From Hyphomicrobiales bacterium (GTDB lineage Bacteria; Pseudomonadota; Alphaproteobacteria; Rhizobiales; Devosiaceae): a DNA stretch of 64,000 bases. Below the pieces are notes generated by a model. It was not told where the DNA came from, did not search any database, and was given only the letters and a program-made list of their open reading frames with translations. Below, piece after piece: positions 16,383 through 46,412 of this stretch. The position numbers were made by a program, and so were the translations under genes. Where the stretch lies: positions 17,626 through 81,625 of the forward strand of contig SEEL01000014.1 of NCBI GenBank assembly GCA_004144345.1, given 5' to 3'. Within the stretch, counting starts at the first letter, position 1. The number at the start of each line of letters is the position of its first letter.

Positions 16383-16411
16383 TTGACCCTTGCTCTCCCC
16401 CGGCCCACATT
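16383..16411 (+). promoter_or_regulatory. Putative sigma70 promoter giving a leaderless pgsA transcript
   Basis: TTGACC-N17-CACATT with the ATG A 7 nt downstream; no SD sequence. Confidence 0.45.
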
Positions 16412-16417
16412 CCCACC

Positions 16418-16996: not shown

Positions 16997-17244
16997 AGAT
17001 TCTCTATTTCGCCTGGCTGCGCGAACGGCTCGATCGCGGCGAGGAAGAAGTGTCGCCACCCCCGGAGGTCGCCACCATCGCCGATCTCATCGCCTGGCTC
17101 CGGGCCCGGGACGAAGCGGCCGATCTCGCTTTGCAGCGCCCCGAAATCATCCGCGCCGCCATCGATGCCAGGATCGTCGCTCACGATGCCCCCATCGCCG
17201 GTGCCCGGATCATCGCCCTCTTCCCGCCCATGACGGGCGGCTAG
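16993..17244 (+). CDS. moaD: Molybdopterin synthase sulfur carrier subunit
   Basis: MKILYFAWLRE ... ALFPPMTGG. Confidence 0.95.
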   Translation: MKILYFAWLRERLDRGEEEVSPPPEVATIADLIAWLRARDEAADLALQRPEIIRAAIDARIVAHDAPIAGARIIALFPPMTGG

Positions 17245-17245
17245 A

Positions 17246-17692: not shown

Positions 17693-17695
17693 CCG

Positions 17696-32018: not shown

Positions 32019-32705
32019 TCACTCGAAATAGGTGTTTGACCATTCGAGAATGTGAGCGCGCATCGCCGCGGAAGCTTCGGCGGGGCGCCGGGCTTTCACC
32101 AGCTCGAATATGGAACGGTGATCGTCGATCTCCTTGCGGCGGGCATTGGGGATCGCATCGATGCGTCGACCGCGTTCCTGCATGATATGCAGGATCGATG
32201 ACATGAACGACGCTGCCACGCGATTGTGCGACGCTTCCGCCAGTAATATATGGAATCGCGCTCCATATTCTGAAACTGGCCGATCCTGCTCGTGCCGCTC
32301 CTCATGCTCATCGAGCAGGCGCTCGATACGTTCGAGGTCCTCCTCGGTAGCGCGCTGGGCAGCAAAGCCGACGCAGTCGGGTTCGATCATGACCCGCGCC
32401 TCCAGCATCTCCTCGGCCAACGTATCGTTGATCAAAAGACCAATCACGTCGGTGCGGAAGAGTTCGGCCGGCGTCGGCGCTTTGACAATGGTGCGATGAC
32501 CGGCCGAGGACTCGACGACGTTGAGCGCGACCAAATTCTGCAATGCTTCGCGCACCGTCGAGCGGCCCACGTCCAGGCTCTCGGCAAGCTCCTTCTCCGA
32601 TGGCAGCACATCGCCGACGCGCCAGGTGCCAGAACGGATCATGCCAAGCAGTTGGTTCGCCGCTGTCTGAGCGCTGGTCCGCCTCACCACGGGTTTGAGC
32701 GTCAT
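32019..32705 (-). CDS. GntR/FadR family regulator
   Basis: LPSEKELAESLDVGRSTVREAL; FCD domain with ASHNRV. Confidence 0.93.
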   Translation of the reverse strand: MTLKPVVRRTSAQTAANQLLGMIRSGTWRVGDVLPSEKELAESLDVGRSTVREALQNLVALNVVESSAGHRTIVKAPTPAELFRTDVIGLLINDTLAEEMLEARVMIEPDCVGFAAQRATEEDLERIERLLDEHEERHEQDRPVSEYGARFHILLAEASHNRVAASFMSSILHIMQERGRRIDAIPNARRKEIDDHRSIFELVKARRPAEASAAMRAHILEWSNTYFE

Positions 32706-32721
32706 GAGGTATCCTCTCAGG

Positions 32722-32732
32722 TTGTCTGATAG
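32722..32732. promoter_or_regulatory. Degenerate copy of the FadR-type operator
   Basis: TTGTCTGATAG versus TTGTCTGACAA at 34656-34666. Confidence 0.4.
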
Positions 32733-32763
32733 CTAGTTCGCAACCGCTGCATTTGCAATCTGC

Positions 32764-33501
32764 TCAGACGAAGTTTCGGGGTGGCAGCAGGCGCGCGACG
32801 CGTTGCATGGCTTCCGCCACATGCGACTTTGCACCGGAAAGCACGGCACTGCCGTGCCCCGCCAGAAACGCATCGAAGCTTAGCGAGGCCAGGCGCCTGA
32901 TCGACTCGCAGCTTTGGGCGACCGAACTGTCCCAGATGTCCTGGAGGATAATGGTCCCCCCGGCAAAGATGGCGTCGCCGGCGATCAGGGTCGCCTCCCC
33001 ATCGATGGTCACGAGGTAACTGAGGTGATCGGCGCTGTGCCCCGGCGTCGCCACCGGCCGGATTTCAGCATCACCGATGGCAATCGCCGCCGCATCGTCA
33101 ACAATCTGGTCAATCACCAGCGGCTGCCACTTATACTGGTCGGGATAGACGCCGGCGCGGCGGGCAGCCGGTAGGCTGATCCTCTCCTCGTCGCCGGCAG
33201 CTAGCCACTCCGCCGTAAGCGGACCGGCATAGACCACCGAGCCATACTGCCGTGCGATGTGGGCTGCCCCACCGGAATGGTCGGCGTGCCCATGCGTCAG
33301 GAACAGATGTCGCGGACCATTCGCAAAGCCGGCGGCCGCGACGGCAGTATGCAACTCCACCGGATCGATGCCCGCCCCCGCATCAAACATCACGAGTCCG
33401 GCGCTCGTTTCGAGACCGAATGCGTTGCAGTCGACGGCATTCGACAGGGGCACGCCGTTGGAACTTCCAAGAATCTGGTGCCAGCGATGGTTGATGCGCA
33501 T
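32764..33501 (-). CDS. Metallo-beta-lactamase-fold hydrolase
   Basis: THGHADHSGG, TPGHSADH, AGDAIF, GHG. Confidence 0.9.
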   Translation of the reverse strand: MRINHRWHQILGSSNGVPLSNAVDCNAFGLETSAGLVMFDAGAGIDPVELHTAVAAAGFANGPRHLFLTHGHADHSGGAAHIARQYGSVVYAGPLTAEWLAAGDEERISLPAARRAGVYPDQYKWQPLVIDQIVDDAAAIAIGDAEIRPVATPGHSADHLSYLVTIDGEATLIAGDAIFAGGTIILQDIWDSSVAQSCESIRRLASLSFDAFLAGHGSAVLSGAKSHVAEAMQRVARLLPPRNFV

Positions 33502-33505
33502 GAGC

Positions 33506-34603
33506 CTATCTTGCCAGCAATTCCGGCAACGTCGCCAGCGTCGCCGTTTCCATCGTGAGCGGCGCGGCATCCAGCAAGACGCTCGTTTCACGGAAGCCCG
33601 AGCCACAGGCTAGCGCGACGACAGTCTGGCCCGGCGAAATCACGCCGTCCCGCTGCATCTGGCGCAAGGCCGGCAGCGCGATGGCGCTTGAGGGCTCGAG
33701 GTAGATCCCGTCGCTCCGCCCGATCTCGGCCACGGCCAGGATGGCATCACTGTCCTCGAAGGCGTAGACGGCGCCCTTGCTCTCGCGCAGCGCGCGCAGC
33801 GCTTCGATGCCATCGGGGGCGTGGTCGTGCGCGATCTTGTTGAGCACCGTTGGACCTCCCACCGGCGCAGGAAGATCGAAGAACGCCTTGGCGTCGGCGA
33901 TACCCGCTTCGTGAGCCGTCTTCAGCGCGTCATACCGGGACGGCACCACGCCGATGAGCCGTGGCAGCCGGGCGATCCTGCCCGCCTGAAGCAACTGCGT
34001 GAAACCGCGATGGATCGCCCCAAGCGTGCCGCCCCCACCGACCGGCACGACGAGAACATCGGGGGCGTCGCCCAGATCGTCGACCAGTTCGAAGGCGATG
34101 GTGCGGGCGGCTTCCGCCTGAACCGCGTTGGCAGATTGGGTGGTCGAGGCGACGTAAATGCCGTCCTTGCCGGCCAGCCCGGTTACGGTCGCAATGAGCT
34201 CGTCGATACCGCCGTCAACGGCCACCAATCGCGAACCCAGGGCATGCAGTGGATAGACGCGCTCGCGCGGCGCGCCGGCCGACATCACGGCAATGCTGCG
34301 TAACCCGGCGCGCGCCGCATAGGCAGCGTTGGAGAGGCCAGTAGACCCCGCCGACACGACAACCATCGTCCGCGCGCCGATAGCCCGTGCATGCGTCGCG
34401 GCCAGGGAAAGAGCCCGGTCCTTGTGGGAACCGGTCGGGTTGCGAGTCTCGTCTTTCCACTTGAGATCGATGCCCGGCAACAGGTGGCTCGCGACCAGCG
34501 GCGTCAGCCCCTCCCCCAGCGATACCGGCCGCTCGCCCATCTCGGGGAGCATGGCACGATAGCGCCACATCGACTTATCCAGCCTGCTGTCTTCCATCTG
34601 CAT
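33506..34603 (-). CDS. Threonine synthase-like PLP enzyme (fold type II)
   Basis: SLGEGLTPL, NPTGSHKDR, SAGSTG, VPVGGGG, EPSSA; start could be 34597. Confidence 0.85.
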   Translation of the reverse strand: MQMEDSRLDKSMWRYRAMLPEMGERPVSLGEGLTPLVASHLLPGIDLKWKDETRNPTGSHKDRALSLAATHARAIGARTMVVVSAGSTGLSNAAYAARAGLRSIAVMSAGAPRERVYPLHALGSRLVAVDGGIDELIATVTGLAGKDGIYVASTTQSANAVQAEAARTIAFELVDDLGDAPDVLVVPVGGGGTLGAIHRGFTQLLQAGRIARLPRLIGVVPSRYDALKTAHEAGIADAKAFFDLPAPVGGPTVLNKIAHDHAPDGIEALRALRESKGAVYAFEDSDAILAVAEIGRSDGIYLEPSSAIALPALRQMQRDGVISPGQTVVALACGSGFRETSVLLDAAPLTMETATLATLPELLAR

Positions 34604-34622
34604 TCTAGTTCGCACCACCCGC

Positions 34623-34668
34623 TTGACGTATGGCGGCTTTCTACACATATTCTGATTGTCTGACAATC
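34623..34668 (+). promoter_or_regulatory. sigma70 promoter plus FadR-type operator
   Basis: TTGACG-N17-CATATT, then palindrome GATTGTC-T-GACAATC (34654-34668) over the predicted start site. Confidence 0.7.
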
Positions 34669-34719
34669 GGGCAGGAGGGCAGTTGGGATGCTCTTCCGAT
34701 CGAAAGGGCAGGGAGCCTC

Positions 34720-35994
34720 ATGATAATCCGCACGACTAAAGCCTCGACCTTGGCTACCTCGGTAGCCGCCACCGTACTTGGCCTCGCGCTGGCGAATGGC
34801 GCTGTTGCAGCCGAGCTCAATTTCTCCGTGATGGAATCGGGAACGTACGACAAAGCCGCCAACCAGATCGCGGCCGAGTTCGCGTCGACTGGCACCGACG
34901 TGAAGGTCTTCGCCTTCCCGTGGGCCGTGCTGCGCCAGAACAACACGACCGACCTGATTTCGGGCACCAACCAGTACGACGTGATGAGCGGCGGCTACTA
35001 TCTCGCCGACGTCTATTCCTATTTCTCTACTGTCGACGACCTCATCGCCAAGGACAACTATGCCGAGGGCATGATCCCCGGCCTGCTGTCGCCGGGCCGC
35101 TCGGAATTCGTCGACGGCAGGTCGATCGGCATTCCATATGGCATCGACGCCTACGGCCTGATCTTCAACAAGGAGATGCTCGAAAAGGCCGGCGTGTCGC
35201 CCGAGTTCGCCAGTTGGGCAGACCTCGCTGCGGCTTGCGAAAAGATCGTCGCGGCCAACCCGGGCGTTGCCTGCCTCAGCCACGCGACCGGTAGCCCCGA
35301 GCAGATCGGCGGCTTCTTCTTCTCGGGCTATGCGGGCACCTACGTCTCGAGCGACGGCAAATATGCCCTCGACGTTCCGGCCGCCACGGCTGCCGCCGAA
35401 GAGATCGCCGCGCTCTGGAAGTATCTGCCCGAAAAGGGCACGGCGCTCACCTTTGACGAGGCGCACCAGCTGTTCAAGGATCAGCAGGCCGCCATCACCG
35501 TCACCTATCCGAGCTTCATCACCAACAGCCTCGATGTTGAGGGCTCGCCGGTGGCCGGCAATTGGGGCATGAGCAAGTTCCCCGGGCAGGGCTTCCCCTG
35601 GCTGTCGCTGTGGCAGCTCTTCATCCCCTCGGCGACCGAGGACAAGGATGCCGCCTGGGCTTGGATCAAGGCCTATGCCGGTCCGGAAAACGCCAAGCGC
35701 AACCTCGTTGAGCACAACATCGGTTCGGTCTGGCTCGCTACCTATGAAGATGCCGAGCTCAAGGCAAAGAACGCGCACTTCTGGCCGGCTCTGATCGCGG
35801 GCTTCTCGGCCGCCAAGAACCCGCCGCTCTCGGGTGAAGCGCAGGATCTGCTCACCAACACCCTGCAGGACATCGCCAACGGCCGCGTCTCGGCCGCCGA
35901 TGGCATTGCCTCAGTGGCCGCGCAGTGGGCCAACATTCCGGTGCCGTCGGCCATGTTGGAAGCCGCCGCTGGATCGGACCTGCAGGCAAAGTAA
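34720..35994 (+). CDS. Carbohydrate ABC transporter substrate-binding protein (family 1)
   Basis: RBS GGGAG, signal peptide, GIPYGID..GLIFNKEML. Confidence 0.9.
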   Translation: MIIRTTKASTLATSVAATVLGLALANGAVAAELNFSVMESGTYDKAANQIAAEFASTGTDVKVFAFPWAVLRQNNTTDLISGTNQYDVMSGGYYLADVYSYFSTVDDLIAKDNYAEGMIPGLLSPGRSEFVDGRSIGIPYGIDAYGLIFNKEMLEKAGVSPEFASWADLAAACEKIVAANPGVACLSHATGSPEQIGGFFFSGYAGTYVSSDGKYALDVPAATAAAEEIAALWKYLPEKGTALTFDEAHQLFKDQQAAITVTYPSFITNSLDVEGSPVAGNWGMSKFPGQGFPWLSLWQLFIPSATEDKDAAWAWIKAYAGPENAKRNLVEHNIGSVWLATYEDAELKAKNAHFWPALIAGFSAAKNPPLSGEAQDLLTNTLQDIANGRVSAADGIASVAAQWANIPVPSAMLEAAAGSDLQAK

Positions 35995-36007
35995 GCTGCC
36001 GCACAAT

Positions 36008-36032
36008 TCGGGGCGCGCAAGTCGCGCCCCGA
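36008..36032 (+). other. Intercistronic hairpin after the SBP gene (mRNA stabiliser or partial terminator)
   Basis: TCGGGGCGCG/CGCGCCCCGA 10-bp stem. Confidence 0.55.
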
Positions 36033-36055
36033 TCCCACGACGCATGGACCACACA

Positions 36056-37003
36056 ATGACTGTGCCTGAGACAATCACGGAGAAGCGACGGCCCGCCGGT
36101 CTGGTGGCTCGTCTGGAGGGGCGGCTCGGCGAGAGTGGCGTGCTCCTGCTGTTTCTGGCACCGGCGCTGTTGGTGGTTGCAGTGGCGCAGTTCTACCCGC
36201 TGGCGTCGTCGGCCGTCCTGTCGTTCTTCGACTGGAGCCTGTCGCGATCACCCCGGGTCGGTCCCTTTATCGGCTTCGACAACTATGCTCGAACCTTCAA
36301 CGATCCGATCTTCTCGGGCGCCGTAACCTACACCATCATTTTCGCCATCTCCTCGACGCTGCTGCAGCTCGTGTGCGGGTTGGGCATTGCGCTTCTGACC
36401 GTTGGCGAGAGCTATACGCTGCGACTGGTCCGCACGCTGTTGATGCTGCCCATGGTCATTGCCCCGATCGCCGTGGGCACGATCTGGCGCATGATCCTCG
36501 CAGCGCGCGTCGGCCCGCTCAACCAGGGCCTCGCCAGTATCGGCATCGACGGTCCCAATTGGCTGGGCGACCCGATGTGGGCGTCCTTCTCGCTGATCAT
36601 GATCGACGCCTGGGAATGGACGCCCTTCGTCGCGATAACGCTCACCGCTGCTCTCACATCGATCCCCAACGACCTGACGCTCGCCGCGTCGGTCGATGGC
36701 GCTGGCCGGTGGAAGACCTTCCGCTATGTCGTGTTCCCGATGATCTTGCCGGTACTTGTCCTCGTGGCGATGTTCCGCATGATCGAGGCCTTCCTGACCC
36801 TCGATATCGTGTTTACCACCACGGCCGGCGGTCCCGGCTACGCCACGCACACGCTCAGCTTCTGGATCTACCAGCAGGGTCTGCGCTACTTCAACATCTC
36901 CTACGCTGCGGCCACGTCCTGGATCATGCTCCTTGCATGCCTGGCCATGGCGCTCGGCTTCCTTGCCTGGCGCCGGCATGTCAGCAAGTGGCAGGTGTCG
37001 TGA
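36056..37003 (+). CDS. Carbohydrate ABC permease (CUT1)
   Basis: FIGFDNY, LMLPMVIAPIAVG.IW, WEWTPF, AASVDGA; start 36044 or 36056. Confidence 0.92.
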   Translation: MTVPETITEKRRPAGLVARLEGRLGESGVLLLFLAPALLVVAVAQFYPLASSAVLSFFDWSLSRSPRVGPFIGFDNYARTFNDPIFSGAVTYTIIFAISSTLLQLVCGLGIALLTVGESYTLRLVRTLLMLPMVIAPIAVGTIWRMILAARVGPLNQGLASIGIDGPNWLGDPMWASFSLIMIDAWEWTPFVAITLTAALTSIPNDLTLAASVDGAGRWKTFRYVVFPMILPVLVLVAMFRMIEAFLTLDIVFTTTAGGPGYATHTLSFWIYQQGLRYFNISYAAATSWIMLLACLAMALGFLAWRRHVSKWQVS

Positions 37004-37839
37004 TGATGACGACCCTTGCCCTCCGCCTCGGCCGTGTGGTGCTGATCAGCATTGCGCTGATCATTGCGCTGGCGCCTTTCGTGGTGCTGTTCCTCAACAG
37101 TCTGCGGCCCGCCGACGAATTCCTTTCCGCTGGCTCGGGCCTCATCCCCTCGCATGTGACGTTCGAGCACTATGCCGAGATCTTCGATCCGAGCGGCGAC
37201 ACCTTCCGTTACCTGCTCAATTCGCTGATCATCACTACGGCGAGCACGATCATTGCTGTGCTGTTGGGTGCCATGGCGGCCTATGCGCTGGCGCGCCTCA
37301 AGCTGCCGTTCCGGCTGTCGATCGTCATCGGCATCATGTTCCTCGTGATCCGCTTCTATCCCAAGATCACGGTTGCCCTGCCCTACTTCCTGCTCATGCG
37401 GCAGTTCAACCTGCTCGACACGCACCTGGCAGTGATCATTGCCCATGTCAGCATGACCGTGCCCTTCGTCGTCTGGATGCTGCTGGCCTTCTTCGAGGAC
37501 TTCCCGAAGGAACTGGAGCAGGCGGCGATGGTCGATGGTGCCGGTGCCCTGACGCGCTTCACCCTGATTATCGTGCCGCTGATGGCCCCTGCCCTCGCCG
37601 CCTCTGCCGTGCTCACCGCCTTCATGTCGTGGAATGAGTTTCTGATGGCGTCGACGGTTGCCCCCAATTTTGCCAAGACGCTGCCGGTTCGCATCTCGGG
37701 CTTCATCACCGACAAGGGCATCCTGTGGGGTTCGATGTCGGCGATGAGTTCGGTGATCGTCATTCCCGTCGCGCTGTTCGCCCTGTTTACACAACGCTGG
37801 CTGGCCCGTGGCCTGACGGCCGGCGCGGTGAAGGGCTAG
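37003..37839 (+). CDS. Carbohydrate ABC permease (CUT1)
   Basis: LLNSLII, ELEQAAMVDGA, SWNEFL, RGLTAGAVKG. Confidence 0.93.
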   Translation: MMTTLALRLGRVVLISIALIIALAPFVVLFLNSLRPADEFLSAGSGLIPSHVTFEHYAEIFDPSGDTFRYLLNSLIITTASTIIAVLLGAMAAYALARLKLPFRLSIVIGIMFLVIRFYPKITVALPYFLLMRQFNLLDTHLAVIIAHVSMTVPFVVWMLLAFFEDFPKELEQAAMVDGAGALTRFTLIIVPLMAPALAASAVLTAFMSWNEFLMASTVAPNFAKTLPVRISGFITDKGILWGSMSAMSSVIVIPVALFALFTQRWLARGLTAGAVKG

Positions 37840-37937
37840 CCCATGGCACGCCTTCCATCGCCATCGATCGGCGGCTCACCACTACCGGCAGCAGGTTTCC
37901 TTGCCGCCTCCCCAACGCACACCCGGAGAACCTAGAA

Positions 37938-38750
37938 ATGACGACCAAGCACCTCTACGCCGACATGACGTGGCCCGAGGTCAATGAAGCCGTGAAGCAG
38001 GAACGCGTCGTGCTCATTCCTGTCGGCGCTATCGAGCAACACGGCTACCATCTGCCGGTCGACGTGGACAACGTCATTGCCGTCCACATTTGCGACGAAG
38101 TGGCCAAGCGGTCCAACGAGACCATCGTGACGATGCCGCCGATCCATTATGGCTACAATGACCACAACATGGATTTTCCCGGCACCATCTCGATCAAGAT
38201 GCAGCACTTCATCGACTATTGCGTCGATGTCGGTCTGAGCCTCGCCTCACAGGGCTTCAAGCACATCCTCTACGTCAACGCCCACGGCTCGAACGCCCCC
38301 TTGTGCGACCTTATCTCTCGCCGGGTGACGGTAGAGAACGAGAACTGCCTGTGCGGCTCGGTCAATCACTGGCAGGTTGGCTGGGACGTGATCAGTTCGG
38401 TGCTCGAAGGCGGTCCCTATGCCGCCGACCACGCCTGCGAATGGGAGACGTCGGAATATCTCTACATCGACCCCAACAAGGTGCAGATGGACAAGGCCGT
38501 CGACGAAATCCCGGCCCACCGCGGCGGTCCGCGCTGGCTCTATCCGGATCTGAGCGATAGCCGCAAAGTGTTCTTCATGAACTACTGGAGCCGGATGAAC
38601 GTGTCGGGTGTCGCCGGCACCGCAACTCTCGCAACGCCGGAAAAGGGCAAGGCCATGGTCGAAGGGACGATCGAACGCCTGATCACCATCGCCAATGAGT
38701 TCCGTGACCTCGAAATCGTCCCGCGCATCGATTACCGCGTGAAGGTGTGA
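37938..38750 (+). CDS. Creatininase-family amidohydrolase
   Basis: PVGAIEQHGYHLPVDVD, DFPGTIS, NAHGSN, HACEWETS. Confidence 0.92.
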   Translation: MTTKHLYADMTWPEVNEAVKQERVVLIPVGAIEQHGYHLPVDVDNVIAVHICDEVAKRSNETIVTMPPIHYGYNDHNMDFPGTISIKMQHFIDYCVDVGLSLASQGFKHILYVNAHGSNAPLCDLISRRVTVENENCLCGSVNHWQVGWDVISSVLEGGPYAADHACEWETSEYLYIDPNKVQMDKAVDEIPAHRGGPRWLYPDLSDSRKVFFMNYWSRMNVSGVAGTATLATPEKGKAMVEGTIERLITIANEFRDLEIVPRIDYRVKV

Positions 38751-39739
38751 TGACGACCGTAACTATAGCTGCATCCTCTGGCGCTGCCGTTACTGCGGCA
38801 GCGCCAGGGAGCCGGGTAGATCGCCTGGTCACCTTCGCGGTCGCGCCCGATGGCACCGAGCAGAGCTTTCCGCTGATCGTCATTCGGGGCAGCCACGAAG
38901 GACCCACCATGGTCTTCACGGCGGGTATCCATGGCGACGAATTTGAGGGGCCCGCCGCGCTTTGGCGGTTGGCCGAGGCCCTCGACCCATCGCAGCTGCG
39001 CGGTACCCTGCTGCTCGTGCCGATTGCCAATGCCAGCGCCTTTGCGGCCGGGATGCGCACCAGCCCGGTCGACAATGAGAACCTGGCCCGCATCTTTCCC
39101 GGCAACGCCGAGGGCACGCTGTCGCATCGGCTCGCCGACGCGCTGATGCGCACCGTCGTCGAGAAGGCGGACATTCTCATCGACAGCCATTCCGGAGGCG
39201 TCCGTCTTGCCTTCGTTCCCGTTGCCGGCTTTTACGAAGGCGGCGATGTGTCGGCCGCAGTGACGGCGCGCTCGCTCCAGATCGCCAAGCAGATGGGCAT
39301 CGAGTATTTGTGGCAATTGCCGCCGGTCAACGGTGTACTCTCCTATGAGGCGGCGCGGCGCGGTATCGCCGTCTGCGGCGCCGAGATCGGCGGTCGCGGC
39401 AACTGTTTGCCCGAGGATGCCGAGAATTATCTCGGCGCCTATCTCTCGGTTCTCGCCCACCAAGGCATGATCGATCCGGCTCACAAGCGCGCCGAGACCA
39501 CCGCCTGCCTTGAGGGCGATTGGCAGACGACGCCCGATGCGGGCTATCTTGAAACCGTGGTCAGCCTTGGGTCGCGCGTCGGCAAGGGTGAAACGGTCGC
39601 CGTACTGCACGACGCACTGGGCCAGACAATTCGCGAATTCCCCGCCGGGTTTGATGGCCGCGTGATGGCGGTACGTCACCTCAACAGTGTTCAGAGCGGC
39701 GACCTCGCGATCTGCGTGGTCAAGGAGACAATACGATGA
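38750..39739 (+). CDS. Succinylglutamate desuccinylase/aspartoacylase (AstE/AspA, M14-like) deacylase
   Basis: AGIHGDEFEG, PIAN..AF...RTSP.D..NLARIFPG, IDSHSGG, AEIGG. Confidence 0.9.
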   Translation: MTTVTIAASSGAAVTAAAPGSRVDRLVTFAVAPDGTEQSFPLIVIRGSHEGPTMVFTAGIHGDEFEGPAALWRLAEALDPSQLRGTLLLVPIANASAFAAGMRTSPVDNENLARIFPGNAEGTLSHRLADALMRTVVEKADILIDSHSGGVRLAFVPVAGFYEGGDVSAAVTARSLQIAKQMGIEYLWQLPPVNGVLSYEAARRGIAVCGAEIGGRGNCLPEDAENYLGAYLSVLAHQGMIDPAHKRAETTACLEGDWQTTPDAGYLETVVSLGSRVGKGETVAVLHDALGQTIREFPAGFDGRVMAVRHLNSVQSGDLAICVVKETIR

Positions 39740-40503
39740 GCATGCGCTTTGCGGGTAAGGTCGTCCTAGTCACCGGAGCCGCCGGGGGCATCGGCGCCGC
39801 GACGGTCCGTGCCCTCGTGGCGGAGGGCGCGCTCGCCATCGCCTCCGACCTCAAGCGTCCAGCGCGAGACCTTGGCATCGAAGACGTCCGCTTCATCGAA
39901 GCCGAGGTCAGCGACCGGTCCAGCGTGGACAACCTCGTCGCCGCAGCAGAAGCTGTCGCCGGGCACATTGATGCGCTGGTGCACACCGCGGCGATCCTCG
40001 GGGCCAGTGGCCCCTTCGAGCAACTCAGCAGTGATGACTGGTCGCGCTACCTCGACATCAATCTCACCGGCACCTTCAATACGTGTCAGTCGGTCGCCCG
40101 CTCGATGATCCGCACCGGCACCAGGGGACGGATCGTTACGATGGGTTCCGTCAACGCCTTCGCCGCCGAACCTGAGGCTGCCCCCTACGTCGCCAGCAAG
40201 GGCGGCATTCGCCTGCTGACCAAGGCAATGGCCGTCGATCTGGCCCGCCACGGTATCGCCGCCAACATGGTCGCCCCCGGTCCTATCCATGTGCCGCGCA
40301 ACACCGAGCTGTTCGCCCAGCCTGAACTCGTCGCCTTGTTTGCTCAGTCCGTCCCCTACGGGAGCGCCGGCAGCGCCGAAGACGTCGCGCGCGCCGCCGT
40401 GTTCCTAGCCGATCCCAACCTCGCCTTCGTCACCGGCGCCGAGCTCGCCGTCGACGGCGGCACCATGGCGCAGGTGCTGGCCCTCCCAAAAGCTGCCGGA
40501 TAA
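39736..40503 (+). CDS. SDR family oxidoreductase
   Basis: TGAAGGIG, INLTG, YVASKGG, NMVAPG. Confidence 0.92.
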   Translation: MSMRFAGKVVLVTGAAGGIGAATVRALVAEGALAIASDLKRPARDLGIEDVRFIEAEVSDRSSVDNLVAAAEAVAGHIDALVHTAAILGASGPFEQLSSDDWSRYLDINLTGTFNTCQSVARSMIRTGTRGRIVTMGSVNAFAAEPEAAPYVASKGGIRLLTKAMAVDLARHGIAANMVAPGPIHVPRNTELFAQPELVALFAQSVPYGSAGSAEDVARAAVFLADPNLAFVTGAELAVDGGTMAQVLALPKAAG

Positions 40504-40721
40504 CCGGCCCCGCCGCGACTGGCGGCCATCTTTTGTCCTTGCACACGAAGTGCTTGGCGGCCGCGGATCGGTACGCCACCGCTCCGAGTTGCCCGGGTCA
40601 TACCGTTCCGGCCGCCATGACGGGATCATTTCTTCCGCTCTGTGGTCCGCGCGCATGACAGGGCGGCTTCCTGCCCGGTGCGAGGGTGCAGGCGATGCAA
40701 CCGCCAGCACCGGAGGAACTC

Positions 40722-40961: not shown

Positions 40962-41930
40962 ATGGACGATAGCGAGACCGAGAAGGCTGCAGTGGTGGCG
41001 GTGATCCGCGCCGAGACGGAAGCCTGGCTGCTGCGGGACTTCGATCTCTTGTCGAACTACTGGCTGCAATCGCCCCAGACCCGGCGCATGGAGGCCTTTG
41101 CCTCGCTCGGCGTCCGGGTCGATGAAGGTTGGGACGCCATCGCCGCCCGGCTCAGGAAGATCGTCGAGCGCTTCCCCGACCAGCATGCCTTCGAGGAGCG
41201 GGTGCGCTGGGAGAAGGTCAACATCGTCATCGAGGGCAATGTCGCCTGGATGACATTCGACCAGATCGGCAGTGACACGGGCGAAGACCGCAAGCGCCAG
41301 CTTCGCATTCTCCAGCGCATCGACGGCAACTGGAAGATCGCCTGCATGGTGATGATGGAGAGCAGCGTCGAGGAAACGAACAGCCCGCTGATCGAAATCG
41401 ACGCGGAGGGGCGCATCCTGTGGACGAACCAGTTGGCGCGCGAGCGGATCGCTGGTCACCCCGGCTTGATCAACGCCGCCGGTCGCCTGCGGGCCCGGCG
41501 CCGCGAGCGTGACGCCGGACTGCAGGACGCAGTGCGCCTGGCGTTTCGCGAGCTGCAGAGCCAGCGGCCCCTGAACGTATCGCCGAAACAGGCCTGGGCC
41601 GTAGCGCTCGGCGAGGACGAGGCCGGGCTGCCGATGCATTGCTGGGTTCTGCTCGAGGATGGCAAGGCGCTGGTGTCGTTCGACGATGCCGCGACCATCG
41701 CCAGGCGGATCACCGCGGCACAGGAAGTCTACGGGCTCTCGCCGGCCCAAGTGAGGCTTGCCCGCCTCATCGTCGATGGGCACGATCTGGCGGCCGCCGC
41801 CGATCTCCTCGCCGTCAGCATCAACACGCTGAGGACGCAATTGCAGCGGATCTTCGACAAGACCGGCGTGCGAAGCCAGGCCGCCCTCGTGCGCTCACTG
41901 CTCAGCACCGAAGCGCCGAACAAGACCTGA
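40962..41930 (+). CDS. NTF2/SnoaL-like + PAS-like + LuxR HTH regulator
   Basis: N-terminal NTF2-like domain ending GNWKIA; IDAEGRILWTN; LSPAQVRLA...HDL..AAD.L.VS.NTLRTQLQRIFDKTG. Confidence 0.8.
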   Translation: MDDSETEKAAVVAVIRAETEAWLLRDFDLLSNYWLQSPQTRRMEAFASLGVRVDEGWDAIAARLRKIVERFPDQHAFEERVRWEKVNIVIEGNVAWMTFDQIGSDTGEDRKRQLRILQRIDGNWKIACMVMMESSVEETNSPLIEIDAEGRILWTNQLARERIAGHPGLINAAGRLRARRRERDAGLQDAVRLAFRELQSQRPLNVSPKQAWAVALGEDEAGLPMHCWVLLEDGKALVSFDDAATIARRITAAQEVYGLSPAQVRLARLIVDGHDLAAAADLLAVSINTLRTQLQRIFDKTGVRSQAALVRSLLSTEAPNKT

Positions 41931-41936
41931 TGCCCG

Positions 41937-43052
41937 TCAGAGCGCCGTTCTATAGATGGTCTCAATATCTGCGAGGGTGAACTCGCGGGGGTTGTTGAGG
42001 ATCAGGCGCTTGATGGCGAAGGCGTCCTCGGCGAAGAGGCCGATATCCTCGGCCCGGGCGCCATGGTGCGCGAGGCTCATGTCGATCCCCAGCCTTGCAC
42101 AGAAGGTGAGGCTTTCCGCTCGCGCTGCAGCCTCGTCAGTTGCGCTGGCGAGGCCGAGCGCCGCCATGATGGTCGCGGTCTTGTCGCGCTGGACCGGCGC
42201 GTTGAAGGCGAGCACATGCGGAAAGATGATGGCGTTGGCGAGCCCGTGCGGCAGCTTCAGCCTGGTGCCAAGCGGATAGGCGAGCGCATGGCCGCCAGCG
42301 GTATTCACCGGCCCGAGGCAGACGCCGCCATAATAGGAAGCGAGCATCATGCCAGCCCGCGCTTCGGTGTCGCTGCCGTCGGCAACGGTGCGGCGCAGAT
42401 AGCGGCCCACCAGCTCGATGCCGAGTGTGGCATAGCCATCGATCAGCGGATGCGCCTTGATGTTGGTGAAGGCCTCGACGCAATGCGCCAGCGCGTCGAC
42501 GCCCGTGGCGGCCGTCACTGCCGGCGGCACGGAATAGGTAAGCTCGGGGTCGAGGACCGCGATATCGGCCAGCATGAAGCGGCTCTCGATCGCCAGCTTG
42601 GCCTGCGTCGCCGGGTTTGTCACCAGCGAGCGGATGCCTGCTTCCGATCCCGTGCCGGACGTCGTCGGGACCTGCGCGAGCGCCGTACGGCGGCCACCGA
42701 CCCTGTCGACGCCAACGACATCGAGCACGCTTTGCTCGCTGTCCCACAGCACGGCGACGAGCTTGGCAACATCCATCACCGAGCCGCCGCCGAGCCCGAT
42801 GACGAGATCCGGCTTGAAGGCGCGCGCGCTGGCCAGCACGGCCTCGACGGCGGGCAGGTCAGGCTCGGGCGGGATATCGGTATAGGTGACGATTTCACCG
42901 GCAAGGCCGATGCTTGCGGCAAAGCCAACCGTCGGCGCCATGGCGACAATGAAGATGCGCTTGTAGGCCGACGCCCAGAGGCCGAGCCGCCCAATCGCCC
43001 CTGCCCCGATCTCCAGACGTGCCGGCTGCAGCAGCGTGATCGGCCGCGCCAT
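41937..43052 (-). CDS. Iron-containing alcohol dehydrogenase
   Basis: GLGGGSVMDVAK, PTTSGTGSE, DALAHCVE, HALAYPLG...PHGLAN. Confidence 0.93.
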   Translation of the reverse strand: MARPITLLQPARLEIGAGAIGRLGLWASAYKRIFIVAMAPTVGFAASIGLAGEIVTYTDIPPEPDLPAVEAVLASARAFKPDLVIGLGGGSVMDVAKLVAVLWDSEQSVLDVVGVDRVGGRRTALAQVPTTSGTGSEAGIRSLVTNPATQAKLAIESRFMLADIAVLDPELTYSVPPAVTAATGVDALAHCVEAFTNIKAHPLIDGYATLGIELVGRYLRRTVADGSDTEARAGMMLASYYGGVCLGPVNTAGGHALAYPLGTRLKLPHGLANAIIFPHVLAFNAPVQRDKTATIMAALGLASATDEAAARAESLTFCARLGIDMSLAHHGARAEDIGLFAEDAFAIKRLILNNPREFTLADIETIYRTAL

Positions 43053-43065
43053 CGATAGGGTGGCG

Positions 43066-43998
43066 CTAGACATTCTCCTCGGCCTCCAGCGCGTCCATCC
43101 TGGCCCACACATTGGCGATCTCGTCTGCCGTCAGTTCGACCAGCGGCGGGCGCACCCGGGTCCAGCCGGCATGGCCGCGACGCTTCGCCAGCATCGCCTT
43201 GACGGTGGGCAATTGCACATAGGCATTGGAGAGGTCGCGCCAGGCATTGATGCGAGCCTGCGCGGCATCGACTTCGGCGCTCCTATTGGCGTCGAACCAA
43301 TTGTCGAACACGACGCGCAAATGCCTGGCGATGAGGTTCGAGCTCGAGGTGATGCAGCCGGCGCCGCGCGAGCGGAGCAGCGGCAGCATGAAAGGATCAG
43401 CCCCGGCGAGAACGGAGAAATTCTCGAAGGACGAGGCGAACGCCTGCATGCTGTCGAGCTTGCCCGAGCTATCCTTGATACCGACAACGATGCCGGGGAA
43501 GGCTTCAAGCAACCGGCCGGTCAGTTCGAGCGACAGGCCGACCTGCGCGATCGGCGGGATGTGGTAGAGCACTACCCGCAGCCTGTCACTGCCGACCCCC
43601 TCGATCACCTCCGCATAGAAGCGGAACAGTCCCTCATCGCTCACGCCCTTGTAATAGAAGGGCGGCAACAGGACGCTGGCCTGCACACCGGCGTCGAGCG
43701 CGTGCCGCGTCAGCGCAACGGTATCGCCGACATTGGTCTGCGACGTGCCGGGCAACAGGCGCTTGGCGTCGACGCCGGCCGCGATGACGTTTTCCACCAA
43801 TTGCATGCGCTGCGCGAGGCTGAACGAGTTTGCCTCGCCCGTGGTCCCGAGCAGCGCGATACCGTCGCAGCCTTCAGTCAGCAGCGCCTTGGCATGAGTG
43901 GCGAAGGCGTCGTGGTCCGGCGTGCCGTCGGCGAGCACCGGCGTCGCCGAGGCGCTGAACACGCCGTGGATGGGGAGGCTGCTGGCGGGATTCATCAC
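43066..43998 (-). CDS. DHDPS/NAL-family Schiff-base aldolase
   Basis: GTTGE, PPFYY, LYHIP, GIKDSSG (catalytic Lys). Confidence 0.92.
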
Positions 43999-44942
43999 TT
44001 CTTCCCCGAGACGAGCCGGCGCGCATAGGCGATGGCCGAATTCATGTTGACGTGGTTGGCCCGGCCCGTGCCGGCGATATCAAACGCCGTGCCGTGATCG
44101 ACCGAGGTGCGGTCGATGGGCAGGCCCAGCGACACGTTCACCGCCGTATCGAAGGCAACGAGCTTTATCGGGATGTGGCCCTGGTCGTGGTACTGCGCCA
44201 CCACCAGGTCGAACGCCCCATTGTAAGCGCGGTGATAGACCGTATCGGCGGAGATCGGCCCCGACACGTCGATGCCTTCAGCCCGCGCCATGGCGACGGC
44301 GGGCACCACCTGCTGATCGTCCTCGGTACCGAACAGCCCACTCTCGCCGCAATGCGGATTGATGCCAGCCACCGCAATGCGCGGACTGGCATAGCCGATG
44401 CGCTTCAGATGCTCATTGCCGGCGCGGATGGTCGCCAGAATGCGTTGGGGCGTCGCGCGGTCGATCGCCGTCTTCAGCGACACATGCGTCGAGACGTGGA
44501 TGACCTTGAGCCGTTCCGAGCCGAGCAGCATGAAGGCCGACTTCTGTCCGGTCAGCGCGGCGAGCATGCCGGTGTGGCCATCATAGTGGTGACCGGCGAG
44601 GTTGAGCGCTTCCTTGTTGATCGGCGCCGTGACGATGCAGCCGATGGCGCCGGCCTGCGCGTCGCGCACCGCCTTCTCGATGAAGCGGAACGCCGCGTCG
44701 CCGGCCCGCGGATCGAGCTTGCCCCAGGGCAGCACGCCGCCCTCGATCGGCAGGTCGACAACCAGCGTCTCGAGGTCGAGCGCGAGGCCCGTCGCCTGCA
44801 ACGCTTTATCCAGCGTCGCGCGGTTGCCATATATGCGGGTACGCGCCCGATCCCCGGCGCTCATCTCGGCTACCGCCTTGACCGCGATTTCGGGCCCGAC
44901 GCCGGCCGGGTCACCCATGGTGATGCCAATGATGTCGCTCAC
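43995..44942 (-). CDS. pdxA: PdxA-family (PdxA2-type) 4-phospho-tetronate dehydrogenase
   Basis: [48 protein letters not shown]. Confidence 0.93.
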
Positions 44943-46111: not shown

Positions 46112-46412
46112 CTCGTCCTCTTGCTGTTTGGCGGCAAACTCTAGGTCACCACACATGTTGTCAAGTTATAATCTCGCCGCAACACCTTGCATGTGCCGTT
46201 TTGTCTCATATTTTATATAGCTATTTCAATACGTTATACGACTACGCGACGTGACAAGCATTTGCCAAAGTAGTTTTAATTTGACAACTCGACCGCGTCT
46301 CCGGTTAGGTGCTGTCCGTTGGGCACCGCAACAGCGGCGCCCGTGGAAATATTCGCGTGGGCTGTTCGCAGCTCTGCCCATGCCTTCCGCAAAGCTGCGA
46401 AGGGAGGATGAC

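What the first reader, a model, noticed from the sequence alone, without database searches (positions are those of the whole stretch)
32019..40503. Uncharacterised catabolic regulon: ring-opening amidohydrolase + deacylase + PLP eliminase + SDR + MBL with a sugar-type ABC importer
Seen: divergent operons (ThrC-like, MBL, FadR | SBP, two permeases, creatininase, AstE/AspA, SDR), all with intact catalytic motifs. Established: creatininase-family enzymes open cyclic amides/amidines or deformylate; AstE/AspA enzymes remove N-acyl groups; fold-type II PLP enzymes eliminate beta/gamma substituents. Ectoine/hydroxyectoine catabolism uses the same logic (ring hydrolase, DoeB deacetylase, EutB) with different families. 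Inference: a pathway for a polyhydroxylated cyclic N-compound (amino-sugar, cyclitol or osmolyte derivative). No kinase is present, so the ThrC-like enzyme is unlikely to be a true threonine synthase. I cannot name the substrate.
Basis: partly seen in the sequence, partly recalled or inferred. Interest (0 to 1): 0.62.

Follow-up and report, generated by a model that had tools for sequence, protein, structure and literature searches.

The report
Predicted oxidative N-acetylmannosamine breakdown operon
This is a real, repressor-controlled pair of divergent operons that most likely lets the bacterium (probably a Devosia) import an N-acetylated amino sugar, probably N-acetylmannosamine, and burn it by an oxidative route that has not been described, using enzyme families whose roles here are new.

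Summary
At 32019-40503 lie two divergent operons: ThrC-like PLP enzyme, MBL hydrolase and GntR/FCD repressor on one side; sugar-type SBP, two permeases, creatininase-family hydrolase, AstE/AspA deacylase and SDR on the other.

- **Unit:** a conserved FadR-type operator sits over the shared promoter, and a terminator follows the SDR. Homology to a related Devosia stops exactly at both ends.
- **Co-occurrence:** of 78 loci holding a relative of the creatininase-family gene, 33 have AstE/AspA on the same strand. 23 have creatininase + AstE + PLP enzyme + dehydrogenase, and 15 of those also have the MBL, across at least five phyla.
- **Substrate clue:** the SDR's best solved relative is N-acylmannosamine 1-dehydrogenase (216 bits, 49% identity; next SDR 142 bits). 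In two genomes a NanE-NanK gene follows the cluster.
- **ThrC-like enzyme:** it misses every ThrC cut-off and lacks ThrC's phosphate-binding residues. In some phyla an SHMT-like enzyme plus a sugar kinase replaces it, which points to a beta-hydroxy-alpha-L-amino acid intermediate.

Best reading (confidence about 0.5): ManNAc is oxidised to the lactone, hydrolysed to N-acetylmannosaminate, deacetylated to mannosaminate, and deaminated to 2-keto-3-deoxygluconate plus ammonia. This mirrors the known GlcNAc1A (ong) pathway with other enzyme families. The creatininase-family step is unresolved. No paper describing this pathway was found.

The parts
32019..32705 (-). GntR-family regulator with FCD effector domain (FadR subfamily); predicted repressor of both operons
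   Evidence: PF00392 + PF07729. The best NCBIfam hit is NanR at 121.9 bits, below its cut-off of 260. Orthologues are present in L001, L004, L005, L009 and L083-L085.
32764..33501 (-). MBL-fold metallohydrolase; predicted lactonase for the SDR product (optional member of the module)
   Evidence: PF00753; the HxHxDH motif THGHADH is present. Only weak hits to B3 lactamases, glyoxalase II and AHL lactonases. Found in 19 of 78 related loci, and in three cluster arrangements it lies next to the dehydrogenase gene.
33506..34603 (-). Threonine-synthase-like fold-type II PLP enzyme (type I clade); predicted 2-amino-2-deoxy-aldonate (mannosaminate) ammonia-lyase/dehydratase
   Evidence: PF00291. Below all ThrC cut-offs: TIGR00260 scores 125 against 167, PRK08197 188 against 303. 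About 34% identical to solved ThrCs, with changed motifs: FKDR to HKDR, STGNT to SAGST, NPHR to NAVQ, PVGNAGN to PVGGGGT. It forms a clade separate from true ThrC.
34623..34651 (+). Sigma-70-like promoter of the transporter/enzyme operon (TTGACG, 17 nt, CATATT)
   Evidence: Promoter scan. The -35 TTGAC and a -10-like box are conserved at the same place in eight orthologous intergenic regions.
34654..34668 (.). Palindromic operator GATTGTCTGACAATC of FadR type (T.GT...AC.A), just downstream of the -10 box
   Evidence: It is the only copy in the window at up to 3 mismatches. The core TGTCTGACA(A/T)T is conserved in L004, L084, L001 (variant), L009, L085, L005 and L083.
34720..35994 (+). Periplasmic solute-binding protein, CUT1 sugar/polyol type, with Sec signal peptide
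   Evidence: PF01547 and PF13416. The nearest solved relatives are sorbitol- and maltose-binding proteins, with weak scores. It is 68-92% identical to the binding proteins of L004, L084, L005, L083, L085 and L009.
36044..37003 (+). ABC permease 1 (MalF/UgpA type)
   Evidence: PF00528; UgpA-, GlcT- and MalF-like.
37003..37839 (+). ABC permease 2 (MalG type); its start codon overlaps the stop codon of permease 1
   Evidence: PF00528; MalG- and GlcU-like; TGATG overlap.
37845..37920 (.). Site where relatives carry a MalK-type ATPase gene that is absent here
   Evidence: Devosia sp. 66-22 (L004) has 1084 extra bases (8900-9984) encoding the ATPase between these points. L084 also lacks it. There is no MalK-type ATPase anywhere in the window.
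37938..38750 (+). Creatininase-family binuclear metallohydrolase of an uncharacterised subfamily; the most constant enzyme of the module, exact reaction unresolved
   Evidence: PF02633 at 216 bits. Below the cut-offs of creatininase (124.5 against 235), MftE (110 against 172) and IolN (103 against 245). Residues E33, H35, D44, H116, H165 and E170 are invariant in 33 relatives. At least 1019 relatives exist in public data, all named generically.
38750..39739 (+). AstE/AspA-family zinc deacylase; predicted N-acetyl-(L-configured)-amino-aldonate deacetylase
   Evidence: PF24827. DoeB-like but far below cut-off, 158 against 403. The best solved relative is N-acetyl-L-2,4-diaminobutyrate deacetylase, 130 bits. 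It is translationally coupled to both neighbouring genes.
39736..40503 (+). SDR; predicted N-acyl-D-mannosamine 1-dehydrogenase
   Evidence: The best PDB hit is 4CR6, N-acylmannosamine 1-dehydrogenase: 216 bits, E 7.6e-63, 119 of 245 residues identical (49%), aligned end to end. The next SDR scores 142 bits. All five close homologues examined lie in the same kind of cluster.
40510..40534 (+). Terminator-like hairpin with T run, closing the operon
   Evidence: Terminator scan. Homology to L004 ends at 40490.

Best explanation
This is a repressor-controlled catabolic unit for an N-acyl-2-amino-2-deoxy-hexose, most probably N-acetyl-D-mannosamine (ManNAc) or its aldonic acid. It works by an oxidative route without phosphorylation.

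Proposed steps (all inferred unless marked otherwise):
1. The CUT1 ABC importer takes up the substrate. Its ATPase must be supplied from elsewhere in the genome.
2. The SDR oxidises C1 of ManNAc to N-acetylmannosaminolactone. This step rests on 49% identity to the one characterised enzyme of that activity.
3. The lactone is opened to N-acetyl-D-mannosaminate. The MBL hydrolase is the likely lactonase. The creatininase-family enzyme may act on the same or a rearranged ring form, or it may be a second deacylase.
4. N-acetylmannosaminate has the configuration of an N-acetyl-L-amino acid. The AstE/AspA deacylase removes the acetate.
5. The ThrC-like PLP enzyme, which has lost ThrC's phosphate pocket, eliminates the beta-hydroxyl. 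The products are 2-keto-3-deoxy-D-gluconate and ammonia, and the keto acid enters central metabolism.

In some other phyla step 5 is replaced. There an SHMT-like aldolase would give glycine plus D-erythrose, followed by an FGGY kinase.

The FCD-GntR repressor binds the palindrome over the shared promoter and would be released by the substrate or an intermediate.
For: - **Anatomy, coupling, operator and terminator:**
- **SDR:** it matches N-acylmannosamine 1-dehydrogenase at 216 bits and 49% identity, about 74 bits above any other solved SDR.
- **Reverse check:** all five close SDR homologues sit with cluster genes.
- **ManNAc neighbours:** a NanE-NanK fusion (NanE 280 bits against a cut-off of 189; the best ROK hit is ManNAc kinase) lies directly downstream of the SDR in L084. 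NanE and NanK lie beside the cluster in Rubellimicrobium L009.
- **Regulator:** its top family hit is NanR, a weak match.
- **Stereochemistry:** AstE/AspA relatives with known function act on N-acyl-L-amino acids (family knowledge). Only manno-configured hexosaminates are L (stereochemical reasoning).
- **ThrC-like enzyme:** it is not ThrC, and R160, N188, N154 and T85 are replaced.
- **Alternative PLP branch:** ThrC-like alternates with SHMT-like plus FGGY in otherwise similar clusters. That implies a beta-hydroxy-alpha-L-amino acid carrying a sugar-like tail.
- **Carbohydrate context:** glycoside hydrolases flank the cluster in Phycisphaerae.
- **Precedent:** the same chemistry is proven for the 2-epimer GlcNAc1A in the ong pathway (PMC9537276).
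Against: - No enzyme here has been assayed, and 49% identity does not prove ManNAc specificity.
- The creatininase-family enzyme is the most conserved member, yet it has no necessary step in the scheme. The MBL already covers lactone opening, and the lactone is reported to hydrolyse spontaneously (my recollection of the NAM-DH literature).
- In L009 the NanE/NanK genes have their own regulator and ABC importer. This cluster's binding protein may therefore carry something other than ManNAc, for example the aldonic acid.
- Close relatives lack parts. Bauldia has no AstE, SDR or MBL nearby. Dongiaceae L083 has only the SDR and the PLP enzyme.
- SDRs of the distant clusters are not specifically NAM-DH-like. 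Their ThrC-like enzymes form a separate deep clade.
Confidence: 0.5

Rival explanations
1. The chemistry is the same, but the substrate is a different N-acyl amino sugar or amino-aldonic acid. Candidates are oxidised chitin monomer (GlcNAc1A) after 2-epimerisation, a 6-deoxy or talo-configured N-acetylhexosamine, or a di-N-acetylated sugar. With a di-N-acetylated sugar, the creatininase-family enzyme and AstE would each remove one acyl group.
For: - Two amide hydrolases are translationally coupled.
- Some relatives add a third amidase: M20 in L003/L011, S58 in Bauldia.
- The binding protein is nearest to a polyol-binding protein, which would suit an open-chain aldonate.
- Acidobacterial clusters use an SSS transporter, as the GlcNAc1A system does.
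- SDRs and GFO enzymes of distant clusters are not NAM-DH-like.
Against: - The window's SDR is clearly closest to the ManNAc-specific enzyme.
- NanE/NanK adjacency points to ManNAc.
- D-configured acids such as GlcNAc1A are handled in the known pathway by D-aminoacylase-type and D-amino-acid-deaminase-type enzymes, not by AstE/AspA- or ThrC-type ones.
Confidence: 0.25
2. An imported cyclic amide or amidine with a polyhydroxylated side chain is opened by the creatininase-family enzyme to an N-acyl amino acid, which AstE deacylates. The SDR and the MBL would act on the side chain or on later products.
For: - The creatininase-family enzyme is nearly always paired with a second amidase: AstE in 33 of 78 loci, an M24 creatinase/DoeA-like enzyme in Thermomicrobiales, M20, or S58. 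This is the two-step pattern seen in ectoine, creatinine and hydantoin breakdown.
- Its metal ligands and catalytic histidine are conserved.
Against: - No candidate compound is known.
- The SDR's specific similarity to an aldose 1-dehydrogenase for ManNAc and the NanE/NanK neighbours are left unexplained.
- The importer types vary (CUT1, Opp, SSS) and suggest no particular heterocycle.
- L083 works without the creatininase-family enzyme or AstE in the cluster, although its binding protein is 71% identical.
Confidence: 0.12
3. N-acyl-homoserine-lactone or homoserine-lactone salvage. The MBL would be the lactonase, AstE the N-acyl-homoserine deacylase, and the ThrC-like enzyme would convert the homoserine derivative.
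For: The MBL gives weak hits to the AidB and AttM lactonase families. The ThrC fold acts on homoserine phosphate.
Against: - The lactonase hits are 27-37 bits against cut-offs of 360-390.
- There is no homoserine kinase, and the ThrC phosphate pocket is lost.
- The binding protein is of sugar type.
- The SDR is NAM-DH-like.
- The SHMT + FGGY alternative makes no sense for homoserine.
Confidence: 0.03
4. Ectoine/hydroxyectoine or creatinine catabolism in disguise.
For: AstE is nearest to DoeB, and the hydrolase belongs to the creatininase family.
Against: - Both enzymes are far below the equivalog cut-offs: 158 against 403, and 124.5 against 235.
- There is no DoeA/EutD, DoeC/D, EutABC, creatinase or sarcosine oxidase in the cluster.
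- The importer is of sugar type rather than the Ehu/Ueh type.
Confidence: 0.02

Closest known systems
Oxidative chitin (ong) pathway for GlcNAc1A in Pseudoalteromonas prydzensis (PMC9537276; PMC12017989)
   Same: The chemical logic is the same: an N-acetyl-hexosaminic acid is deacetylated to the free 2-amino-2-deoxy-aldonate. A PLP enzyme then deaminates it to 2-keto-3-deoxygluconate, which goes to the Entner-Doudoroff branch. Both systems are repressor-controlled, and acidobacterial versions of the present module also use an SSS transporter.
   Different: The enzyme families differ. OngB is a D-aminoacylase-type amidohydrolase and OngC a D-amino-acid-deaminase-type PLP enzyme, with a RidA protein and KdgK in the cluster. 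Here the enzymes are AstE/AspA and ThrC-like, families that work on L-amino acids, which fits the 2-epimer (manno) series. The present cluster adds a dehydrogenase and an MBL, so it can start from the sugar itself, plus a creatininase-family enzyme that has no counterpart in ong.
N-acyl-D-mannosamine 1-dehydrogenase of Flavobacterium sp. 141-8 (EC 1.1.1.233; PDB 4CR6-4CR8)
   Same: The window's SDR aligns end to end at 49% identity and 216 bits, far above all other solved SDRs.
   Different: To my knowledge that enzyme is known only as an isolated activity used in sialic-acid assays, with no physiological pathway. Here its relative sits in a complete operon. Specificity has not been tested.
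Canonical ManNAc utilisation (NanK kinase, NanE epimerase, then NagA/NagB)
   Same: The presumed substrate is the same. NanE-NanK genes lie next to the cluster in L084 and L009.
   Different: The canonical route phosphorylates and epimerises to GlcNAc-6-P. The window cluster has no kinase and no epimerase, and would oxidise the sugar instead.
Ectoine degradation (DoeA ring hydrolase, DoeB deacetylase; EutB PLP dehydratase for hydroxyectoine)
   Same: AstE/AspA-family deacetylase of DoeB type (130-158 bits). The order hydrolase, then deacetylase, then PLP enzyme is the same.
   Different: DoeB's cut-off is not reached. There is no M24 DoeA, no aminotransferase or dehydrogenase (DoeD/DoeC), and the importer type differs.
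D-glucosaminate routes (Salmonella DgaE on the 6-phosphate; predicted haloarchaeal route, PMC12343721)
   Same: A sugar 1-dehydrogenase makes a 2-amino-aldonate, which a PLP ammonia-lyase converts to a KDG(P).
   Different: Those routes act on the D-configured, non-acetylated and phosphorylated acid, with unrelated PLP enzymes.
Threonine synthase (ThrC)
   Same: The fold, the PLP lysine motif and about 34% identity.
   Different: It is below the equivalog cut-offs. The residues I recall as binding the substrate phosphate in Thermus ThrC (R160, N188, N154, T85/N87) are replaced throughout the clade. No homoserine kinase is present as a partner.

Membership tests
N-acylmannosamine 1-dehydrogenase (EC 1.1.1.233, SDR) | Classical SDR with the TGxxxGxG cofactor motif and the Ser...YxxxK catalytic residues | tested here: met
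   TGAAGGIG and YVASK are present; PF13561 and PF00106 match.
N-acylmannosamine 1-dehydrogenase (EC 1.1.1.233, SDR) | Closer to the characterised enzyme than to any other characterised SDR | tested here: met
   4CR6 scores 216 bits and 49% identity over 245 residues; the next SDR scores 142 bits.
N-acylmannosamine 1-dehydrogenase (EC 1.1.1.233, SDR) | NAD-dependent oxidation of ManNAc at C1, with strict sugar specificity | not testable with these tools
   Needs an enzyme assay. The list of substrate-pocket residues was not available in the held literature.
Threonine synthase (ThrC) | Score above the curated equivalog cut-off | tested here: not met
   TIGR00260 scores 125.4 against 167.1, PRK08197 188 against 303, PRK05638 188 against 421.
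Threonine synthase (ThrC) | Residues binding the phosphate of O-phosphohomoserine (Thermus numbering R160, N188, N154, T85/N87; the roles are from memory) | tested here: not met
   R160 is Q, N188 is G, N154 is Q, T85 is A and N87 is S, in the window and in all eight type I relatives.
Threonine synthase (ThrC) | PLP-binding lysine in the S-x-K-D-R motif | tested here: met
   PTGSHKDR.
Creatininase (EC 3.5.2.10) | Equivalog score and the companion genes creatinase and sarcosine oxidase | tested here: not met
   TIGR04448 scores 124.5 against 235. No such neighbours appear in the window or in type I loci.
Creatininase superfamily (PF02633) | Fold plus binuclear metal ligands and catalytic histidine | tested here: met
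   PF02633 scores 216 bits. E33, H35, D44, H116, H165 and E170 are invariant in 33 relatives. The mapping to creatininase E34, H36, D45, H120, H178 and E183 is from memory.
IolN (3-dehydro-scyllo-inosose hydrolase) / MftE | Equivalog score | tested here: not met
   IolN scores 102.6 against 245; MftE scores 110.3 against 172.
DoeB (N-acetyl-L-2,4-diaminobutyrate deacetylase) / ectoine pathway | Equivalog score and presence of DoeA | tested here: not met
   TIGR02994 scores 157.9 against 402.7. No M24 hydrolase is in the cluster.
AstE/AspA zinc deacylase family | Catalytic domain | tested here: met
   PF24827 scores 102.5 bits. It aligns over residues 40-321 with the solved deacetylase 6TWL.
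ong (GlcNAc1A) pathway | OngB-type D-aminoacylase, OngC-type deaminase, RidA and KdgK in the cluster | tested here: not met
   None of these families is among the nine genes; compared.
CUT1 ABC sugar importer | SBP_bac_1 binding protein plus MalF/MalG-type permeases | tested here: met
CUT1 ABC sugar importer | Cognate MalK-type ATPase | tested here: not met
   Absent from the cluster and the window, though present in L001, L002, L004, L005, L009, L083 and L085. The rest of the genome could not be searched.
FadR-subfamily GntR repressor system | GntR HTH + FCD domain, and a T.GT...AC.A palindrome at the regulated promoter | tested here: met
   GATTGTCTGACAATC at 34654-34668 is conserved in eight loci.

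The most novel reading that the evidence does not exclude
A complete oxidative pathway for N-acetylmannosamine that has not been described and is spread over several phyla. It would give the long-orphan enzyme N-acylmannosamine 1-dehydrogenase a physiological role and contain two new enzyme activities. One is a threonine-synthase-fold enzyme that has become a mannosaminate ammonia-lyase. The other is a creatininase-fold enzyme that opens the N-acetyl-aminolactone, or its azlactone form, which has the same ring shape as creatinine.
Probability: 0.35. Interest if true: 0.72.

Novelty: new variant of a known kind. Interest (0 to 1): 0.6.

Why it matters
- **A carbon and nitrogen source without a known oxidative route.** ManNAc is released from sialic acids and from bacterial wall polymers such as the teichoic-acid linkage unit, capsules and secondary wall polymers. 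Only phosphorylative or epimerase routes for its use are known.
- **An orphan enzyme gets a context.** An oxidative route in soil and water bacteria (Devosia, Rubellimicrobium, Chloroflexota; related modules in Acidobacteriota and the PVC group) would explain why N-acylmannosamine dehydrogenase exists.
- **Annotation.** It would correct many genes now labelled 'threonine synthase' or 'creatinine amidohydrolase'.
- **New reaction types.** It would add reaction types to the creatininase and ThrC folds.
- **Comparison with the ong pathway.** It forms an L-series counterpart to the recently found GlcNAc1A pathway of oxidative chitin use.
- **Testability.** The prediction can be tested directly with purchasable substrates and with culturable carriers.

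Tried and rejected
- **Neighbouring cluster at 41937-46156** (BNR/sialidase-like, PdxA, DHDPS-type aldolase, Fe-ADH) as the source of ManNAc from a sialic acid. Rejected as unsupported. The aldolase is not NanA-like: 84 bits against 281, and closer to DapA. None of these genes accompanies the cluster in any other locus.
- **LuxR-type gene at 40962-41930** as part of the unit. It is not conserved, and homology to L004 ends at 40490.
- **Three context look-ups wasted.** Match coordinates were used instead of whole genes.
- **Plasmid collection.** It gave only two haloarchaeal creatininase-family hits and no model organism.
- **Metagenome scan with the SDR.** It returned mostly generic SDRs. Only two close ones came back, both with AstE upstream.
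- **Literature searches.** Searches for the creatininase + AstE + ThrC combination, ManNAc dehydrogenase, mannosaminate or mannosaminolactone, the creatininase family, and NAM-DH found no description of such a pathway.
- **Confirming the ThrC phosphate-site residues from papers.** This failed, so those roles rest on memory.
- **Earlier notes of this scan.** They hold nothing on this cluster elsewhere.
- **Own genome.** It could not be searched for thrC, kdgK, eda, nanA/nanK/nanE or a shared MalK-type ATPase.
- **Tartrate dehydrogenase next to the Bauldia cluster** and **MTTB/DAO next to a distant creatininase-family gene in L037**. Both were judged to belong to other functions.

Full report
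**1. What is there**

The region holds nine intact genes in two divergent operons.

On the minus strand:
- ThrC-like PLP enzyme, 33506-34603
- MBL-fold hydrolase, 32764-33501, four bases downstream of the ThrC-like gene
- GntR/FCD regulator, 32019-32705

On the plus strand:
- SBP_bac_1 binding protein with a signal peptide, 34720-35994
- two MalF/MalG-type permeases, 36044-37003 and 37003-37839
- creatininase-family hydrolase, 37938-38750
- AstE/AspA-family deacylase, 38750-39739
- SDR, 39736-40503

Three gene junctions have overlapping stop and start codons: permease 1 with permease 2, the creatininase-family gene with AstE, and AstE with the SDR.

A sigma-70-like promoter (TTGACG, 17 nt, CATATT; 34623-34651) is followed at once by a perfect palindrome, GATTGTCTGACAATC (34654-34668). 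This has the FadR-subfamily operator form and is the only such site in the window. Promoter and palindrome are conserved in eight orthologous intergenic regions. A hairpin with a T run follows the SDR.

DNA similarity to Devosia sp. 66-22 is about 80%. It covers exactly 32024-37845 and 37920-40490 and stops at both ends. The flanks are housekeeping genes on one side (proC, lgt, prs, a LysR regulator). On the other side lie an unrelated LuxR-type gene and a separate sugar-acid cluster. The finding's coordinates therefore bound a real, discrete unit. The organism is probably a Devosia.

**2. One difference from relatives**

Devosia sp. 66-22 and most other relatives carry a MalK-type ATPase gene between permease 2 and the creatininase-family gene. 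In the window 75 bases stand in its place, and the window holds no MalK-type ATPase at all. L084 also lacks it. CUT1 importers often share an ATPase encoded elsewhere (general knowledge).

**3. Do the genes belong together?**

I scanned one genome per species for relatives of the creatininase-family protein and compared the window's proteins with the 78 loci found.
- AstE/AspA lies nearby in 33 loci, always on the same strand and often directly downstream.
- A ThrC-like enzyme lies nearby in 26.
- An SDR or a GFO/IDH/MocA dehydrogenase lies nearby in 35.
- The MBL lies nearby in 19.
- 23 loci hold creatininase + AstE + PLP enzyme + dehydrogenase, and 15 of those also hold the MBL.

The carriers span Alphaproteobacteria, Acidobacteriota (Bryobacteraceae, Terriglobia), Chloroflexota, Planctomycetota (Phycisphaerae) and Verrucomicrobiota.

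The importer varies. It is a CUT1 ABC system here, an Opp-type ABC system in some Chloroflexota, and an SSS symporter in Acidobacteriota. In a Phycisphaerae contig the module lies among glycoside hydrolases.

**4. The clue to the substrate**

Against all solved structures, the SDR's best match is N-acylmannosamine 1-dehydrogenase of Flavobacterium sp. 141-8 (4CR6). The match scores 216 bits, E 7.6e-63, with 119 of 245 residues identical and alignment from end to end. The next SDR reaches 142 bits.

I ran the reverse test: are close relatives of this SDR found in such clusters? All five that I could examine are.

In one of them (L084, same gene order as the window) the next gene is a fusion of NanE and a ROK kinase. 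The NanE part scores 280 bits against a cut-off of 189, and the kinase part's best match is N-acetylmannosamine kinase. In the isolate Rubellimicrobium sp. CFH 75288, NanE and the ROK kinase lie beside the cluster in an operon with its own UTRA-type regulator and ABC importer. The window's regulator has NanR as its best, sub-threshold family hit.

These are independent pointers to ManNAc.

**5. The amino-acid end of the pathway**

The ThrC-like enzyme is below every threonine-synthase cut-off. It keeps the PLP lysine. It has lost the residues that, as I recall from the Thermus thermophilus structures, hold the substrate's phosphate: R160 is Q, N188 is G, N154 is Q, T85 is A and N87 is S. This holds in the window and in all close relatives. 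I could not confirm those roles from held papers.

In several Chloroflexota the ThrC-like gene is replaced, within an otherwise similar cluster, by two genes. One is an SHMT-like gene (295 bits, below SHMT's cut-off of 335; the next hit is fluorothreonine transaldolase). The other is a xylulokinase-like FGGY kinase.

A PLP eliminase and a PLP retro-aldolase can only stand in for each other on a beta-hydroxy-alpha-L-amino acid. The kinase appears only with the aldolase, which suggests the aldol product is a small sugar.

AstE/AspA enzymes of known function remove N-acyl groups from L-amino acids with a free alpha-carboxylate. The solved relative here is the N-acetyl-L-2,4-diaminobutyrate deacetylase.

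Oxidising an N-acetylhexosamine at C1 gives exactly such an N-acetyl amino acid. Of the common sugars only the manno series gives the L configuration: in the Fischer projection the amino group is on the left. It also gives the erythro relation that SHMT-type aldolases prefer (stereochemical reasoning and general knowledge).

**6. Proposed mechanism**

1. ManNAc, or its aldonic acid, is imported.
2. The SDR oxidises ManNAc to N-acetylmannosaminolactone.
3. The lactone is opened to N-acetylmannosaminate.
4. AstE/AspA removes acetate, giving mannosaminate.
5. The ThrC-like enzyme eliminates water and ammonia, giving 2-keto-3-deoxy-D-gluconate.

In the SHMT-type clusters, step 5 would instead give glycine plus D-erythrose, which is then phosphorylated.

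All steps are inferred. Step 2 has the strongest sequence support.

The same chemistry has been shown experimentally for the 2-epimer, GlcNAc1A, in the ong pathway of Pseudoalteromonas (PMC9537276). That pathway uses D-aminoacylase-type and D-amino-acid-deaminase-type enzymes. The present cluster looks like its L-series counterpart, built from other families and extended upstream by a dehydrogenase.

**7. What does not fit**

- **The creatininase-family step.** This enzyme is the most constant member, yet it has no necessary step. The MBL is optional and in three arrangements lies beside the dehydrogenase, so it is the natural lactonase. The creatininase-family enzyme keeps its metal ligands and catalytic histidine. 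It is coupled to AstE, and in other lineages it is partnered with a second amidase of another family: M24 creatinase/DoeA-like, M20 or S58. Possible roles are hydrolysis of one lactone form, hydrolysis of the azlactone that N-acyl-amino lactones can form (a ring shaped like creatinine), or removal of a second or different N-acyl group. Sequence cannot decide this.
- **Incomplete close relatives.** Bauldia has only the importer, the creatininase-family enzyme and the ThrC-like enzyme, plus GFO and S58 upstream. A Dongiaceae contig has only the importer, the SDR and the ThrC-like enzyme, although its binding protein is 71% identical to the window's.
- **Distant clusters may differ.** The ThrC-like enzymes of the distant clusters form a second deep clade, no closer to the window's clade than to true ThrC. 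Their SDRs are not specifically NAM-DH-like. Those clusters may act on other amino sugars.

**8. Comparison with known systems, and novelty**

- It is not the ectoine, creatinine, inositol (IolN) or mycofactocin system. Every equivalog cut-off is missed, and the companion genes are absent.
- It is not the ong pathway.
- It is not the NanK/NanE route.

Six literature searches found no description of an oxidative ManNAc pathway, nor of this gene combination. The library lacks most subscription journals, so an existing description cannot be excluded.

I rate it a new variant of a known kind: oxidative, non-phosphorylative sugar and amino-sugar catabolism. It probably contains two new enzyme activities.

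**9. Verdict**

| Question | Answer |
|---|---|
| Observation | confirmed |
| Catabolic module for an N-acyl amino sugar, via a beta-hydroxy-alpha-L-amino acid | confidence about 0.75 |
| Substrate is ManNAc or its aldonic acid | confidence about 0.5 |
| Interest | 0.6 |

Noticed in passing
window 37845-37920: The MalK-type ABC ATPase gene that relatives carry between permease 2 and the creatininase-family gene is missing here; in Devosia sp. 66-22 it occupies L004 8900-9984. It is also missing in L084. No MalK-type ATPase lies anywhere in the 64-kb window, so the importer must borrow one.
   Followed up: partly
window 34654-34668, and the orthologous sites in L004, L084, L001, L009, L085, L005 and L083: A perfectly palindromic FadR-type operator, GATTGTCTGACAATC, lies just after the -10 box. 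It is conserved across genera and could be used to find further regulon members in whole genomes.
   Followed up: partly
L084 10135-11682; L009 about 12538-19041: A NanE-ROK (ManNAc-6-P epimerase / ManNAc kinase) fusion lies directly after the cluster in L084. In Rubellimicrobium a UTRA-GntR regulator, NanE, a ROK kinase and a second CUT1 ABC importer lie beside it. This looks like an 'amino-sugar island' holding both the phosphorylative and the putative oxidative route.
   Followed up: partly
L016 2913-14845 (Thermomicrobiales MAG): A variant module: ThrC-like (type II), an M24 creatinase/DoeA-like hydrolase, an Opp-type importer, the creatininase-family enzyme, an SDR and an M20 peptidase. 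The creatininase + creatinase-like pairing with a ThrC-like enzyme suggests a different, unknown N-compound.
   Followed up: no
L020-L022, L026, L029, L031, L034, L047, L054, L055, L075 and others (Acidobacteriota); L050, L051, L060 (PVC): A second deep clade of ThrC-like enzymes has the motifs PTWSWKDR, STGNHG, NPFG.EGFKT and P.GSGDG. They are as far from the window's clade as from true threonine synthases, and are probably annotated as threonine synthase.
   Followed up: partly
L037 8721-12484 (Anaerolineae MAG): A more distant creatininase-family gene sits between a DAO-type FAD oxidoreductase and an MTTB-family (trimethylamine/glycine-betaine type) methyltransferase. This hints at yet another role of the family, in methylated-amine metabolism.
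   Followed up: no
window 40962-41930 (+): A 322-aa protein with a C-terminal LuxR/GerE-like helix-turn-helix has no confident Pfam or NCBIfam hit (only a weak PucR HTH match). It is not conserved next to the cluster elsewhere.
   Followed up: partly
window 41937-46156 (-): The neighbouring cluster holds Fe-ADH, a DHDPS-family aldolase (closest to DapA, not NanA), PdxA (above the TIGR00557 cut-off; D-threonate-4-P dehydrogenase-like) and a BNR_2 sialidase-like protein. None of these accompanies the present cluster in any other locus, so the adjacency looks coincidental.
   Followed up: partly
L005 11041-12114 (Bauldia litoralis): A bona fide tartrate dehydrogenase (TIGR02089, 580 bits against a cut-off of 470) directly follows the creatininase-family gene. 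An S58 (DmpA-like) peptidase and a GFO oxidoreductase lie upstream, while AstE, the SDR and the MBL are absent.
   Followed up: no
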